A DNA stretch of 54,860 nucleotides, filler included, from Basidiobolus ranarum (Eukaryota), in NCBI GenBank assembly GCA_040143965.1. It is 4 parts of 4 records of this genome, joined end to end, with 100 filler letters (N's around TTAATTAATTAA, not from the genome) between each part and the next. Parts side by side here need not be neighbours in the genome. Positions count along the whole stretch, not along the records: positions 1 to 13,658 come from JASJQH010000469.1; 3 more parts are not named here. One strand, 5' to 3'. Position 1 is the stretch's first letter, and each line of letters starts with the position of its first letter. The notes beneath the pieces were generated by a model that saw nothing but the letters and a program-made list of their open reading frames with translations, did no database searches and had not been told where the DNA came from. The translations under genes and the position numbers were made by a program. Positions 68 through 3,028 of the stretch are shown here, piece by piece.

Positions 68-3028
68 CGGTAAACAGCATCCTTCCGTTTGGTCCATAAT
101 TTACGGCAAATATGACTGAGAGGGCATTTCTAGCCCTGGATTTTTCGGCATAGAAATCACCTATTCCTCTTCCGCACATCAATGGCGATCGTAGTGCATT
201 ACCCATTACTGGTAAACTTGGCCCTATGAACGACAAGTCTAAGCCACTGGGCTCGATCCAGCGGAGGTCGTGAAGTGAGCCAGACACTTGAAATCCTGTA
301 GGGCTACGAGCTAAATACCAATGTACTTTCAGCATTGCTCTGGTGAGAGTACCAGCAGGCGTTTGCTGCCCATCCGCAGCTTGAATAAATGCATTGATGT
401 CCTGACTAGTAGCAACCGCTTGATTAATGTTATCACATGCGGCAGAAATGGGAGCGCCCACGCTTGCTCTGTTATTTGGCGAAAATAAATCGTCGCTATA
501 AGAATCAAGATTAGATTGTGAGCTAGGAATATGTGAGCTAGGAATACTTGGACGCTGTATCTTACATCATTACTCGAGTATTGGGATTAAAGATGGTTGG
601 ATTATTTTCCAGCAATCTTGCTATTCCTCCGATGTGATCTATGAATCAACAAAATTAGTTGTGGTAAATATCACTTGGTGGGTGTTTTTATAGTGATTAT
701 ATACGGTGATTATATACGGTGATTATATACGGCGATTATATACGGTGATTATATATACAGTAAATAGACAGAAAGAAATTCTAAAAAGGGGTTATCCAAA
801 AAGAGGGATTCTAAAAAGGGGTTATCCAAAAAGAGGTTATATTGTACCTTCATCTAGATGTGTGATGATTAAATGGCTGATGTATCCTTGTTGCTCTACC
901 CCTTCAACGGTAATTTTGCTTCCACGAACTCGGCTAATGATGTTTTCTGCTGCGGCACTTGGACCACCATCTACCAATAACCTGTCAAGATTCCATAAGC
1001 GGCACTCTATCATGGCTCTCACATTTTCGCTTGTGTATCGATTGTTTCCCCGGCATTTATAATGCTCAAATGCAAGCACAAAGCTACGAGTATAAGATGT
1101 CATGTGAATGCGGAAATTTTCAAAACTTAATCATTACTACTTACCTATCACCTCGGCCAACCTGGACCATGTCCGTGGTCAGGAAGCGTACATCTTTTTC
1201 ATTCCTGTCATTCTGTGTCACACTTTCCTCATTGCACAATATGGCGTTCAGAGTATGTCTTGGATCAACTCCTCGCCCCACTTGGGCGTCATTAACGTGT
1301 AGTAGAACCTGGTTTATAGACGCTTGTTGTACTATCAGAAAGAGACCATTTAACTGATCTACCGCGTCATTCATAGAAATCGGTATTGATTTTGCGACCG
1401 TCCAAGCAGCATATATTGCTATAAACGTTTCGGTCAAGTAGTTACGATTAATTTCCGAAACCCCTCTAGCAACAAGGCTCACATTAGACCGTCGACACGA
1501 GTTATTATTAAGAAAGTCAGCTATAGCTTCGGCCAATTTTTGTTTGTCGGATTTGTATCCTCCTAAACAAAGTATCAATGTAGAGTTAGTACGGGTGCGA
1601 GAGAAATTCTGAACGTTTTTATATGAATTTTACCGTTCGATTGCTTAGAGTAAGCAACTGTCTTCTCCTCTGTGGCGAATCCGGTTTTGCTACTCAAGAA
1701 CTGGCAATTTATTGGCTCTTTCGATTCAGGATCGAAGTACATATTGATCCCTTGACAAGTAGTTCTTTCTAAGCACCAAGAGAAGCATTCACTTTTTTTA
1801 TCTGTTTTGATTCGATCCATTTCGTCGCCTACTATTCTCTGTTTGTTAGCCACGACATACTCAAATATTGTGCAGCTGCATCCGTTTGTATTCTTGACTA
1901 CGCACAAAGATTGACAATGATTCGTTCCGATAAAGGGTCTTTTACAAATAGCTCCTCCCGAGGCCTTCTCACTAGTGCACGAATTTGAGTCAGCTAACTC
2001 CCCGCCACGGTGACAAGTGCGAGAATTACTTGACCTGAGTTTATCACACTGCGACCAATAGTATGAATAGCAACAGTTTGGTGGCTGATTTCCCTCCGGC
2101 AAGGGACCTATATCTAGTACATTTACTACAGCACCATCTAAGTCAGCCTGTGAGATGATGATTACTTGAACCAAAAGGGCTACAGCAATAACTGCAGGCG
2201 CTAAATTAGATACTATTACGGCAAGCCATGCTATTAAGGGCCAGAATCCTATTTAAACGTAGGTTATCACGAGTACGAATATAAATAAATGTCTGTGAAA
2301 TTAGCAATTTTACTCTTTTGGAGATGATGCGGATGTTGGCCTACATCAAGATCTCTTCTTTGCATTCGCGTCGTTAAACTCGTCTTTTCGGGGCTTTGAA
2401 AGCATTGACAAACATTTGAACAAGGTGATTGATTGATGCATCTCATTACGTCTTGGTCAAATAGTCCATATAGTGCCAGTGAAGCCTCAGTACGCAATAA
2501 GTCGGTACAAGTATTCTCCTGCGGCAAGCATTCTTCTACCTTCGAAATGAGCTGATGGACTTGATCAAACTTGGATGCATCTTGCTGAGTCTCAGCTATT
2601 GCCTCGTTTACTTGAGACCAATATTCCATTTCATTCACGACTCCGTCTCCTTGAAATATCTATTAGTTCCATGACTAATGCATAACAAAAATATTGTCCA
2701 TACCGTTGATGTCGTATTCTTTGATAACTCTTTCATAGAATAATCCGATAGGAGCTTCCTGGGCGAGCAGAACACTGGTAACGCGCGTAAAGGTGCACTT
2801 CCTGGCAGGACTTGAGTGAGAGATTTTTGTAGGTATACAATATAGATCAAGTAGCGATATCATTTTATCCATATCAAGATCAAGCTCGGTAAAAACGTTT
2901 TTATACCCCAAGTACACTCTCTCGGAAGTTAAAGCAGCGGGCAATGAAGTTACTCCATGGTAATAAGATAGGAACCACACCAAAGTGTACACCACATTCA
3001 AAGTACCTCTCCAAGCACTTAGAGACAT
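68..3028 (-). CDS. Secreted multidomain protein, 3'-truncated by the window edge: signal peptide, 2 EF-hand-like loops, KR site, hydrophobic segment, Cys-rich region, PAN/apple domain, ComEC/Rec2-type MBL-fold hydrolase
   Basis: Manual exons 3028-2704, 2649-2314, 2248-1634, 1562-1145, 1083-848, 638-566 and 495-68 are joined by GT-AG introns with consistent phase (810 codons + 1 nt). Splicing restores motifs that are broken in the ORF track: DINGDGVVNEME, HLQKR|FWPLIAWL, MVQVGRGDSFVL, LLVDGG, HLIITHLDEDHIGG and NALSVIFAVNYG..RMLFTG. A further intron starts at 67 and probably runs off the window. Confidence 0.85.
693..836. repeat. Intronic tandem repeats: 13-mer GTGATTATATACG x~4.8 (693-755) and a 30-nt-period duplication (778-836)
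   Basis: Directly visible. They lie inside the 209-nt intron 639-847. Confidence 0.9.

What the first reader, a model, noticed from the sequence alone, without database searches (positions are those of the whole stretch)
68..1190. ComEC/Rec2-like metallo-beta-lactamase domain whose metal-binding motif appears only after splicing
Seen: four apparently unrelated fragments splice into DMVQVGRGDSFVL..LLVDGG..ISHLIITHLDE|DHIGGIARLL..RNALSVIFAVNYG..RMLFTG. Established: this order matches the ComEC/Rec2 MBL motifs (DVGQGD, LIDGG, THxDxDHxGG, NxxS, LxTGD), a mostly bacterial group of nucleases and phosphodiesterases. Inference: as the C-terminus of a secreted eukaryotic protein it may be a nuclease or phospho-esterase effector. 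It could be bacterially derived and have gained introns since. The substrate cannot be read from the sequence.
Basis: partly seen in the sequence, partly recalled or inferred. Interest (0 to 1): 0.85.

Follow-up and report, generated by a model that had tools for sequence, protein, structure and literature searches.

The report
Fungal ComEC/Avs1a-type metallo-nuclease domain, intron-split
The region is the tail of an intron-containing Basidiobolus ranarum gene whose spliced product carries a metal-dependent hydrolase domain of the kind bacteria use to cut DNA, part of a small undescribed family in early-branching fungi, although this copy may lack the end of the domain.

Summary
On the minus strand, three GT-AG introns (1144-1084, 847-639, 565-496) join in phase to give GRGD-S-FVL, THLDE-D-HIGG and RVM-I-DDLF. 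The public model of Basidiobolus ranarum K7432_008445 (P0001, 824 aa, 100% identical) uses the same joins.

The domain belongs to the ComEC-type branch of the metallo-beta-lactamase (MBL) fold:
- A family profile hits ComEC chains first in the PDB (3e-7).
- The model of the complete paralogue P0003 matches the ComEC MBL domain 9ic4 best (E 5.2e-12, TMt 0.71).
- Its best family models are the defence nucleases Avs1a, LmuA and RTasMBL, ahead of ComEC itself. It shares their long insert between motif II and the Asn motif.

It is one of about 11 proteins from 7 genera of early-diverging fungi. They sit on a signal peptide, EF-hand, hydrophobic helix and PAN chassis and form one group in a quick tree. 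I found no sign of recent transfer.

The annotated protein stops 13 residues after LFTG. It lacks the TGD Asp and the HHxS and HP motifs that complete relatives keep. A weak 49-nt intron (67-19) would restore the Asp, but the window ends there. The most likely function is an extracytoplasmic metal-dependent DNase or phosphodiesterase. This is inferred, not shown.

The parts
24..3028 (-). Whole annotated gene (Basidiobolus ranarum K7432_008445, P0001, 824 aa): 7 exons and 6 introns, with the stop TAA at 24-26.
1145..1562 (-). Exon 4: linker plus the start of the MBL domain. It ends in ..DMVQVGRGD (motif I; the D564 codon is 1149-1147) plus AG of the split Ser codon.
   Evidence: D564 is invariant in the 40-row alignment.
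1084..1144 (-). Intron 4: 61 nt, GTAAGT..TAG, phase 2.
848..1083 (-). Exon 5: SFVLAFEHYKC..ECRLWNLDRLLVDGG..ISHLIITHLDE. It holds the fungus-specific Cys pair C575/C592, the DGG motif and the first half of motif II (H640 at 860-858, D642 at 854-852).
639..847 (-). Intron 5: 209 nt, GTACAA..ATAG, phase 1. It splits the D644 codon (G848 + AT 638-637). It contains an in-frame TAA at 837-839 and two tandem repeats (13 nt x 4.8 at 693-755; 30 nt x 2 at 778-836).
566..638 (-). Exon 6: (D)HIGGIARLLENNPTIFNPNTRVM, the second half of motif II (H645 at 636-634, G648).
496..565 (-). Intron 6: 70 nt, GTAAGA..ATAG, phase 2.
68..495 (-). Exon 7, homologous part. It holds the long insert between motif II and the Asn motif (conserved G759-P760 and C775-G776), then ARNALS (N791 at 128-126) and RMLFTG (G811 at 68-66).
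24..67 (-). Annotated C-terminal tail LGLMTFKFIFAIC plus stop. It has no counterpart in any relative. pLDDT is below 50 for residues 813-824.
19..67 (-). Candidate 7th intron: 49 nt, donor GTTTGG, acceptor CATAG. It would join G68 to AT 18-17, giving the Asp of the TGD motif, and would open ..DCMSPS running off the window. The signals are weak: it is the only donor not starting GTA, and its branch-like TTAAC lies about 6 nt from the AG.
   Evidence: This is inference, not shown.
2133..2246 (-). Internal hydrophobic stretch, residues 222-259 by a 19-residue window (mean Kyte-Doolittle up to 2.54). It is preceded by KR and is a probable membrane anchor.
   Evidence: It is a helix in both models.
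1635..2102 (-). Cys-rich PAN/apple-like region (about residues 270-425).
   Evidence: PAN_4 hits in relatives. Foldseek finds PAN/apple matches such as 3hmr (TMt 0.65).
2622..2713 (-). Canonical EF-hand loop DINGDGVVNEME (residues 106-117). It is itself split by intron 1 (2703-2650).

Best explanation
Shown:
- Window 24-3028 (minus strand) is an intron-bearing gene of the fungus Basidiobolus ranarum.
- Its spliced product ends in an MBL-fold domain of the ComEC/Avs1a type.
- That domain carries motif I (GxGD), DGG, motif II in the HxDxDH form, a long insert, and the N..S and TG motifs.
- The same domain, complete, occurs in a paralogue in the same species and in chytrid and Mucoromycota proteins. 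Most of these share a signal peptide, EF-hand pair, KR plus hydrophobic helix and PAN chassis.

Inferred:
- The complete domain binds two divalent metal ions (Mn2+ or Zn2+) through H640, D642, D644, H645, N791, the TGD Asp and the HHxS His. It hydrolyses phosphodiester bonds, most probably in DNA, as the ComEC C-terminal domain and the Avs/Hachiman MBL nucleases do.
- Conserved Cys pairs, PAN, and the chitinase, LysM and papain partners seen in relatives point to action outside the cytoplasm, at the membrane or wall.
- The copy in the window has every conserved residue up to G811. It reaches the remaining ligands only if the transcript continues past the annotated stop. Otherwise it is a truncated, probably inactive paralogue.
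For: Splicing and identity:
- Searches give the joins. Searches show 100% identity to P0001, whose model uses the same joins.

Placement in the MBL fold:
- Pfam Lactamase_B: P0001 22.1 bits, P0002 23.1 and P0003 29.3, against a cut-off of 22.7.
- The profile of 4 fungal domains hits ComEC chains first among PDB sequences (9vc6_A 3e-7, 9ic4_A 2.8e-6). The aligned motifs are GQGDSF, THPDADHIGG, TGD, KVPHHGS and GHP.
- The same profile found 178 proteins at E<=1e-3 among 8000 scored candidates. Where named, they are ComEC or MBL hydrolases.
- The AlphaFold model of P0003 has pLDDT mostly 70-92 in the MBL part. Foldseek against the PDB gives 23 matches at E<=1e-3. The top match is the ComEC MBL domain 9ic4 (5.2e-12, TMt 0.71).
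- The nearest Atlas clusters by features and by structure are all bacterial MBL or 'ComEC/Rec2 family'.

Closeness to the defence nucleases:
- The best NCBIfam MBL model is Avs1a in 7 of 7 fungal proteins scanned (P0003: 4.9e-17 against 4.9e-7 for ComEC_Rec2).
- The best PADLOC model is LmuA (5 of 7) or RTasMBL (2 of 7).
- The distance from motif II to N..S is 151 residues in P0001 and 119-247 in 6 fungal rows. The medians are 177.5 in 42 expanded-class and 79.5 in 44 standard bacterial rows.

Conservation: all residues invariant in the 26 bacterial rows are kept in the complete fungal members.

Biochemistry of relatives (passages read):
- The ComEC C-terminal domain is extracellular and is a Mn2+-dependent phosphodiesterase and DNase that needs the motif II aspartates (PMC8579336).
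- HamM and Avs1a MBLs are DNA-specific nucleases (PMC12799240).
- VcMBL is a Zn2+-dependent dsDNA nuclease (10.1101/2025.11.14.688446).

Extracytoplasmic setting:
- Cys pairs C575/C592 and C775 are conserved in 8 of 10 and 8 of 8 fungal rows.
- PAN hits occur in relatives.
- Umbelopsis P0029 fuses GH18 chitinase to the MBL domain.
- The gene's upstream neighbours are a GH18-CBM18 chitinase and LysM proteins.
Against: - No enzymatic, transcript or localisation data exist for any fungal member.
- P0001 alone is below the Pfam cut-off. Its model gives 0 Foldseek matches at E<=1e-3; the best is 1.3e-3, a methyl parathion hydrolase, with 9ic4 third.
- All defence and ComEC family models are matched far below their curated cut-offs (for example 61.7 against 420 bits).
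- The annotated protein lacks 3 of the roughly 8 metal ligands. The rescuing intron has a poor donor and branch site.
- The second-best structural match is the phosphorylcholine esterase Pce/CbpE (1.4e-9), so a non-nucleic-acid phosphodiester is possible.
- A cleaved signal peptide plus one transmembrane helix would put PAN and MBL in the cytosol, which conflicts with the disulfide argument. The topology is unresolved.
- The HN pair conserved in 22 and 25 of 26 bacterial expanded-class rows is not kept in the fungi.
Confidence: 0.55

Rival explanations
1. The copy in the window is a truncated or decaying paralogue. Translation really ends at TAA 24-26, so the MBL domain lacks the TGD Asp and the HHxS and HP motifs. 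It would then be catalytically dead, or retain only a binding or scaffold role. This rival concerns this copy only. It is compatible with the family reading above.
For: - The public gene model ends there.
- The only candidate intron that restores the Asp has the sole non-GTA donor of the gene and a branch-like site about 6 nt from the AG.
- By my own estimate (no call), an AG followed by AT or AC in a usable position within about 45 nt is expected by chance roughly one time in three.
- The closest paralogue P0002 (58% identical) is also annotated without the C-terminal motifs.
Against: - Every conserved residue up to G811 is intact, and the six upstream introns are clean.
- The 13-residue tail has no homology and is modelled at pLDDT below 50, as expected for read-through into an intron.
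- The G|GT..AG|AT join gives exactly the invariant Asp.
- Gene models in this assembly look imprecise: P0002 skips the EF-hand and helix region and has 7 extra residues at the exon 4/5 join.
Confidence: 0.4
2. The domain is a phosphodiesterase for a non-nucleic-acid substrate at the cell surface. Candidates are phosphodiester-linked wall substituents, as with the pneumococcal phosphorylcholine esterase Pce/CbpE, or phosphorylated glycans of fungal or bacterial walls.
For: - Pce/CbpE (1wra, 2bib) is the second-best group of structural matches for P0003 (E 1.4e-9 to 7.8e-9).
- The fungal domain is fused to, or lies next to, wall-directed modules: GH18 chitinase in Umbelopsis P0029, PAN in most members, and a GH18-CBM18 chitinase and LysM genes next to it in the window.
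Against: - Sequence profiles favour nuclease families: Avs1a, LmuA, RTasMBL and ComEC.
- The TM-score to ComEC's nuclease domain is higher than to Pce (0.71 against 0.58-0.60).
- No choline-binding repeats were found.
Confidence: 0.2
3. The domain is a recent bacterial insertion or a contaminant, or the 'splicing' is a chance juxtaposition of unrelated fragments.
For: - Every relative outside fungi that carries a name or taxon label is bacterial. Most of the 120 listed hits are unnamed metagenome proteins.
- Basidiobolus is reported to hold many bacterial-origin genes (PMC7466969, title and abstract only).
Against: - Three spliceosomal introns lie inside the domain, two of them splitting codons of conserved residues.
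- GC content is 35-41% throughout the window.
- The neighbours are typical fungal genes: HLH, bZIP, chitinase.
- The domain is fused to a fungal-wide N-terminal chassis.
- The 9 fungal rows sit on one side of a branch (SH-aLRT 92) and are not nested in any of the 103 bacterial rows.
- Identity to bacterial hits is only 19-40%.
Confidence: 0.03

Closest known systems
C-terminal MBL nuclease domain of the DNA-uptake protein ComEC/Rec2 (PDB 9ic4, 9vc6; TIGR00361)
   Same: - Best solved-structure match by profile (3e-7 and 2.8e-6) and by fold (5.2e-12, TMt 0.71).
- Same motif set: GxGD, DGG, HxDxDHxGG, N..S, TGD, HHGS, HP.
- In ComEC the domain is extracellular and is a Mn2+-dependent phosphodiesterase and DNase (PMC8579336, passages read).
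   Different: - No competence channel domain (PF03772) and no OB domain.
- About 70-100 extra residues between motif II and N..S.
- An extra Cys-pair hairpin between GxGD and DGG.
- Eukaryotic and intron-bearing, on an EF-hand/PAN chassis.
- TIGR00361 is matched at 28.3 bits against a cut-off of 190.
Protease-gated MBL pro-nucleases of bacterial antiphage systems (Hachiman HamM, AVAST Avs1a, the Lamassu- and DRT-associated MBLs, CanC; NCBIfam NF041809, PADLOC LmuA/RTasMBL/Avs1a)
   Same: - Best-scoring family models for all 7 fungal proteins scanned and for P0001 itself.
- The expansion lies in the same interval between motif II and N..S. Within it, G759 and P760 are shared with the bacterial rows (P760 in 26 of 26).
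- In the quick tree the fungal rows lie on the same side as 34 Avs1a-like rows of a branch (SH-aLRT 93) that sets apart the 57 standard ComEC-like rows and 12 others.
- These bacterial enzymes are DNA-specific nucleases.
   Different: - Scores are far below the curated cut-offs (61.7 against 420 bits).
- No partner trypsin-, caspase- or subtilisin-like protease was seen in the 10 window ORFs scanned or fused in any fungal member.
- The conserved Ile cleavage sites could not be located, and the bacterial HN pair is not kept.
- The fungal insert is modelled as partly structured helices and strands. The papers describe the bacterial insertions as disordered (PMC12799240) or as linker regions (10.1101/2025.11.14.688446) that cover the active site.
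- The setting is extracytoplasmic or membrane-bound instead of cytosolic.
Pneumococcal phosphorylcholine esterase Pce/CbpE (PDB 1wra, 2bib)
   Same: A surface-exposed MBL-fold phosphodiesterase attached to wall-binding modules. It is the second-best structural match (E 1.4e-9, TMt 0.58-0.60).
   Different: No choline-binding repeats. Sequence profiles do not pick it up: it is absent from the 33 PDB sequences at E<=1. Its substrate is teichoic-acid phosphorylcholine, not DNA.

Membership tests
Metallo-beta-lactamase superfamily (Pfam PF00753) | Whole-protein score at or above Pfam's gathering cut-off (22.7 bits) | tested here: inconclusive
   P0001 scores 22.1 bits, just under the cut-off. Paralogues P0002 (23.1) and P0003 (29.3) pass.
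Metallo-beta-lactamase superfamily (Pfam PF00753) | Alpha-beta/beta-alpha sandwich fold | tested here: met
   The P0003 model gives 23 PDB matches at E<=1e-3. The matches shown at that level are MBL-fold proteins. For the P0001 model (truncated domain) the best matches are also MBL-fold, but at E 1.3e-3 and weaker.
Metallo-beta-lactamase superfamily (Pfam PF00753) | Motif II metal-binding signature (HxHxDH or its HxDxDH variant) | tested here: met
   HLDEDH at residues 640-645, formed across intron 5. H, D, D and H are at least 90% conserved in the 40-row alignment.
ComEC/Rec2 competence protein (TIGR00361; PF03772 + MBL) | Polytopic competence (channel) domain PF03772 | tested here: not met
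   No PF03772 hit in P0001 or in any of the 19 other relatives scanned.
ComEC/Rec2 competence protein (TIGR00361; PF03772 + MBL) | Curated score cut-off of TIGR00361 (190 bits) | tested here: not met
   Best fungal score is 29.3 bits (P0017). P0003 scores 28.3. TIGR00361 is not listed for P0001.
ComEC-type MBL nuclease domain (as in PDB 9ic4) | Full ligand set: GxGD, HxDxDH, N..S, TGD, HHGS, HP | tested here: inconclusive
   All are present in P0003, P0009, P0011, P0016 and P0020, and in P0029 except that its last motif reads QP. In the window's gene they are present up to TG. The Asp, HHxS and HP are absent from the annotated model and would lie beyond window base 1.
Protease-gated MBL pro-nuclease (Avs1a NF041809 / HamM type) | Curated score cut-off of NF041809 (420 bits) | tested here: not met
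   P0001 scores 30.3 bits and P0003 61.7 bits. Even the bacterial expanded-class hits reach only 50-190 bits.
Protease-gated MBL pro-nuclease (Avs1a NF041809 / HamM type) | Insertions relative to ComEC between motif II and the Asn motif | tested here: met
   The distance is 151 residues in P0001 and 119-247 in 6 of 9 fungal rows. Medians are 177.5 (42 of 46 expanded-class rows) and 79.5 (44 of 57 standard rows).
Protease-gated MBL pro-nuclease (Avs1a NF041809 / HamM type) | Adjacent or fused partner protease (trypsin-, caspase- or subtilisin-like) | tested here: not met
   None among the 10 window ORFs scanned (10 of the 17 ORFs of 130 aa or more, plus the CBM18 ORF, were covered across). None is fused in the fungal members. 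Eukaryotic partners need not be adjacent, so this is weak evidence.
Protease-gated MBL pro-nuclease (Avs1a NF041809 / HamM type) | Two conserved cleavage-site isoleucines in the gating insertions | tested here: inconclusive
   No column with a conserved Ile (70% or more) appeared in the insert of my 26 bacterial rows, so the sites could not be mapped onto the fungal sequences.

The most novel reading that the evidence does not exclude
The fungal proteins are the first eukaryotic branch of the protease-gated MBL pro-DNase clade (HamM/Avs1a/CanC). An ancient fungus captured a bacterial defence nuclease with its autoinhibitory insert and mounted it on a fungal-wide chassis of signal peptide, EF-hand, KR plus hydrophobic helix and PAN. 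In Basidiomycota the same chassis carries papain-like peptidase/LysM or an unknown domain. The enzyme would be a membrane-tethered zymogen, switched on by proteolysis or Ca2+ to destroy DNA, for example in self/non-self or antiviral cell death, or against gut bacteria and their extracellular DNA.
Probability: 0.2. Interest if true: 0.75.

Novelty: new variant of a known kind. Interest (0 to 1): 0.45.

Why it matters
ComEC-type MBL nucleases are treated in what I read as a prokaryotic theme: DNA uptake, and since 2025 protease-licensed antiphage DNases. The two main papers on the licensed DNases contain no word beginning 'fung' in their main text. Two further searches found nothing on fungal ComEC-like MBLs.

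This locus shows a long-resident, intron-bearing eukaryotic lineage of that domain, found in 7 genera of chytrids, Zoopagomycota and Mucoromycota. It sits in an extracytoplasmic-looking architecture beside chitin-directed modules. If it is active, it is a candidate fungal extracellular or membrane DNase. That is relevant to nutrient scavenging, to interactions with bacteria in the herptile gut where Basidiobolus lives, and to cell-death control. It would also add to the list of bacterial immune modules reused by eukaryotes.

At the level of this single window the result is more modest. The gene is already in public databases as a hypothetical 'MBL domain-containing protein', and its model is probably wrong or truncated at the 3' end.

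Tried and rejected
- Single-exon Pfam scans gave no MBL hit (0 of 4 fragments). The domain is detectable only when spliced.
No RNA evidence and no sequence left of base 1 could be obtained.
- Earlier findings of the scan held nothing.
- Searching for closer orthologues with residues 530-824 of P0001 found only P0001 and P0002 (2 proteins among 8000 scored candidates). No complete orthologue was available to settle the 3' end.
- A second copy in the window: none by tblastn.
- I considered that the papain-bearing chassis proteins could be the activating protease of the MBL proteins. Those proteins come from Basidiomycota (Rhizoctonia, Pleurotus; Mycena has LysM only), not from the taxa that carry the MBL version. 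There is no co-occurrence support.
- The candidate 7th intron (67-19) is kept only as a possibility, because its donor and branch signals are weak. The other two frames downstream of LFTG close within a few codons (read).
- Recent transfer or contamination is rejected (see the rival explanations).
- phmmer of P0001 alone against the PDB was not significant (E 0.32 and 0.5). Only the family profile reached significance.
- I did not run complex prediction. No partner was identified that would justify it.
- A first version of the exon-fitting script failed because the anchor string did not match the window. It was redone from coordinates.
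Full report
**What is in the sequence**

The feature lies on the minus strand. Fitting the public protein P0001 to the window gives a 7-exon gene: 3028-2704, 2649-2314, 2248-1634, 1562-1145, 1083-848, 638-566 and 495-24. The introns are 54, 65, 71, 61, 209 and 70 nt. All are GT..AG, and all six donors begin GTA.

- 1145|1083 completes a Ser codon (GRGD-S-FVL).
- 848|638 completes the Asp codon of THLDE-D-HIGG.
- 566|495 completes an Ile codon.

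Without splicing, exon 5's frame ends at TAA 837-839. Taken singly, none of the four fragments hits any Pfam family at E<=1. Intron 5 is long because it holds two tandem repeats. The window has 35-41% GC and no tRNA genes.

**Whose gene it is**

Exon 7 is 100% identical to P0001, an 824-aa NCBI 'hypothetical protein K7432_008445 [Basidiobolus ranarum]'. UniRef calls it an MBL domain-containing protein. tblastn of P0001 recovers all exons in the window and no second copy. So both the splicing and a generic MBL label already exist in automated public annotation. Splicing therefore rests on signals, phase and homology, not on transcripts.

**Is it an MBL domain of the ComEC kind?**

- P0001 alone is borderline in Pfam: Lactamase_B 22.1 bits against a cut-off of 22.7. 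It is not significant against PDB sequences.
- An exhaustive phmmer search of 1.84 billion representatives found only 20 proteins at E<=1e-3. They include a complete paralogue, P0003 (979 aa), which continues after LLFTG with D...KVPHHAS...YMHP.
- A profile of four fungal domains (A1) hits ComEC chains first among PDB sequences (9vc6_A 3e-7, 9ic4_A 2.8e-6), with motif-for-motif alignment.
- The same profile finds 178 proteins at E<=1e-3. Their names, where given, are 'competence protein ComEC' or 'beta-lactamase superfamily II metal-dependent hydrolase'.
- The AlphaFold model of P0003 has mean pLDDT 67.3, with the MBL part mostly 70-92. Its best PDB match is the ComEC MBL domain 9ic4 (E 5.2e-12, TMt 0.71). 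Next come the phosphorylcholine esterase Pce/CbpE and then Integrator/RNase Z-type MBL nucleases.
- The model of the truncated P0001 (pLDDT 67.6, tail below 50) gives only weaker MBL-fold matches. None reaches E<=1e-3, and 9ic4 ranks third at 1.5e-3. It also gives PAN/apple matches for the middle region.
- The ESM Atlas look-alikes are all bacterial MBL or 'ComEC/Rec2 family' clusters.

**A closer relative than ComEC**

NCBIfam and PADLOC place the domain nearest the MBL nucleases of antiphage systems.
- For P0001: Avs1a 1.8e-7 and LmuA 3.1e-9.
- For the 7 fungal relatives scanned: Avs1a is the best MBL-type NCBIfam model in 7 of 7 (P0003: 4.9e-17 against 4.9e-7 for ComEC_Rec2). LmuA (5) or RTasMBL (2) is the best PADLOC model.
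- All these scores are far below curated cut-offs, so this is relatedness, not membership.

Among the 120 listed profile hits, 103 had both motif II and an HHxS-type motif by my patterns; 17 were dropped. They split into 57 'standard' and 46 'expanded' proteins by motif spacing. Ten expanded ones all match Avs1a best, at 1.6e-13 to 6.5e-56.

The extra length lies between motif II and the Asn motif. The medians are 79.5 (standard) and 177.5 (expanded). P0001 has 151 residues there and the other fungal rows have 119-247. G759-P760 inside that interval is shared across kingdoms.

According to passages I read, these bacterial enzymes are 'gated' pro-nucleases. Their insertions block the active site until a partner protease cuts them, and once activated they degrade DNA (PMC12799240; 10.1101/2025.11.14.688446). 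The ComEC domain itself is an extracellular Mn2+-dependent phosphodiesterase and DNase that needs the motif II aspartates (PMC8579336).

**The fungal family and its architecture**

Names give the following MBL-bearing members:
- Basidiobolus ranarum: P0001, P0002, P0003
- Spizellomyces punctatus: P0009
- Phlyctochytrium planicorne: P0011, P0022
- Powellomyces hirtus: P0012 (fragment)
- Blyttiomyces sp.: P0016
- Rhizophlyctis rosea: P0020 (motifs seen)
- Umbelopsis sp.: P0017, P0029

Most members share this order of parts: signal-like N-terminus, EF-hand pair, a strongly hydrophobic stretch preceded by KR (residues 222-259 in P0001 by a 19-residue window, about 32 uncharged residues), a Cys-rich PAN-like domain, a low-confidence linker and then the MBL domain. 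One EF-hand loop of P0001 (DINGDGVVNEME) is itself split by intron 1.

The same N-terminal chassis occurs in Basidiomycota with other C-terminal parts. These are an unknown domain in Pseudozyma, Panaeolus, Auricularia and Ceraceosorus, and LysM plus a papain-like peptidase in Rhizoctonia and Pleurotus. In Umbelopsis the MBL domain is fused to a GH18 chitinase instead.

In the window, the genes just upstream are a GH18-CBM18 chitinase (same strand) and LysM proteins. Fungus-specific conserved Cys pairs in the MBL domain also suggest a secretory-pathway protein.

The topology is not settled. A cleaved signal peptide followed by one membrane helix would place PAN-MBL in the cytosol. The KR on the N-terminal side of the helix and the disulfide-type domains argue the opposite.

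**Origin**

A quick IQ-TREE of 112 rows (9 fungal, 103 bacterial; P0017 and P0020 not included) puts the fungal rows on one side of a branch (SH-aLRT 92, not starred). They are nested in no bacterial subclade. A branch with support 93 separates the 57 standard and 12 other rows from the fungi plus 34 Avs1a-like rows.

The fungal branches are long, and the tool warned of one long-branch join. With introns, fungal neighbours and a spread over three phyla, the data fit an old fungal lineage of ultimately bacterial type. They do not fit a recent Basidiobolus-specific transfer or contamination.

The preprint on transfers in 44 early-diverging fungi has no occurrence of lactamase, ComEC or nuclease in its main text. 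I saw only the title and abstract of PMC7466969. Supplements were closed.

**The open 3' end**

The annotated protein ends LFTG-LGLMTFKFIFAIC. Every complete relative instead has TGD followed by about 130-200 more residues carrying HHxS and a Pro-containing motif, HP in most members. Reading G68 | GT...AG | AT18-17 removes 49 nt and yields exactly the Asp, then CMSPS.. to the window's edge.

However, this donor (GTTTGG) is the only non-GTA donor in the gene, and the branch-like site is very close to the AG. By my estimate such a join could arise by chance about one time in three. I therefore leave it open whether the model is wrong or the copy is truncated. I put truncation at about 0.4.

**Mechanism proposed**

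Shown: the fold class, the motif set, the family and the architecture.

Inferred: a dinuclear metal site (H640, D642, D644, H645, N791, the TGD Asp, an HHxS His, with D564 nearby) that hydrolyses phosphodiesters. The substrate is most probably DNA, and the site of action is outside the cytoplasm at the membrane or wall. The insert may regulate access.

Rivals: a wall phosphodiesterase like Pce, or an inactive truncated copy.

**Verdict**

Novelty is moderate. The gene is already annotated generically, but I found no description of a fungal ComEC/Avs1a-type MBL family on this chassis.

Noticed in passing
window 3801-5599 (-): Directly upstream on the same strand lies a chitinase gene: GH18 (5168-5599, E 3.9e-25), a chitin-binding type 1/CBM18 domain (E 1.2e-6) and an HRM-like Cys-rich stretch (both within 3801-4154). 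In Umbelopsis the homologous MBL domain is fused to a GH18 chitinase (P0029). The adjacency here may therefore reflect a functional link.
   Followed up: partly
window 7039-7845 (+) and 8049-8588 (+): ORFs with LysM domains (E 4.3e-8 and 2e-17). Together with the chitinase they form a small cluster of chitin-directed secreted-type genes next to the MBL gene.
   Followed up: no
window 2133-2252 (-), residues about 220-259 of P0001, and relatives: A dibasic KR (AR in P0003) directly precedes the internal hydrophobic helix in the chassis proteins; a pattern search found it in 8 of 10 relatives checked. It could be a Kex2-type processing site, which would leave a hydrophobic new N-terminus, or simply a positive-inside topology signal. 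It conflicts with the simple 'signal peptide plus type I anchor' reading.
   Followed up: partly
window 639-847 (intron 5): The long intron that splits motif II carries two perfect or near-perfect tandem repeats (13 nt x 4.8 at 693-755; 30 nt x 2 at 778-836). Intron 6 carries a 15-nt x 2 repeat (517-546). Repeat expansion explains the size of intron 5.
   Followed up: no
window 2650-2703 (intron 1): Intron 1 splits a canonical EF-hand loop (DING|DGVVNEME). It is a second case in the same gene of a metal-binding motif that exists only after splicing.
   Followed up: yes
P0004-P0007 (Pseudozyma, Auricularia, Panaeolus, Ceraceosorus), C-terminal about 400-500 residues: Basidiomycete proteins share the chassis of signal peptide, EF-hand, KR helix and PAN. 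They end in a conserved C-terminal region with no Pfam family at E<=0.01. It is an unexplained domain that occupies the place of the MBL domain.
   Followed up: no
window 24904-25848 (-), 28415-29263 (-), 35114-36394 (+), 42818-43981 (-), 46249-47205 (+): The other large ORFs are ordinary fungal genes: an HLH transcription factor, a Sulfotransfer_4 protein (E 2.9e-64), an RNase_T exonuclease with RRM, a bZIP factor and a NIPA Mg transporter.
   Followed up: no
P0002 (B. ranarum K7432_011765): The closest paralogue's public model jumps from the signal peptide straight to the PAN region. It has 7 extra residues exactly at the exon 4/5 join and loses homology after MCG. Gene models of this family in this assembly look unreliable.
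   Followed up: partly
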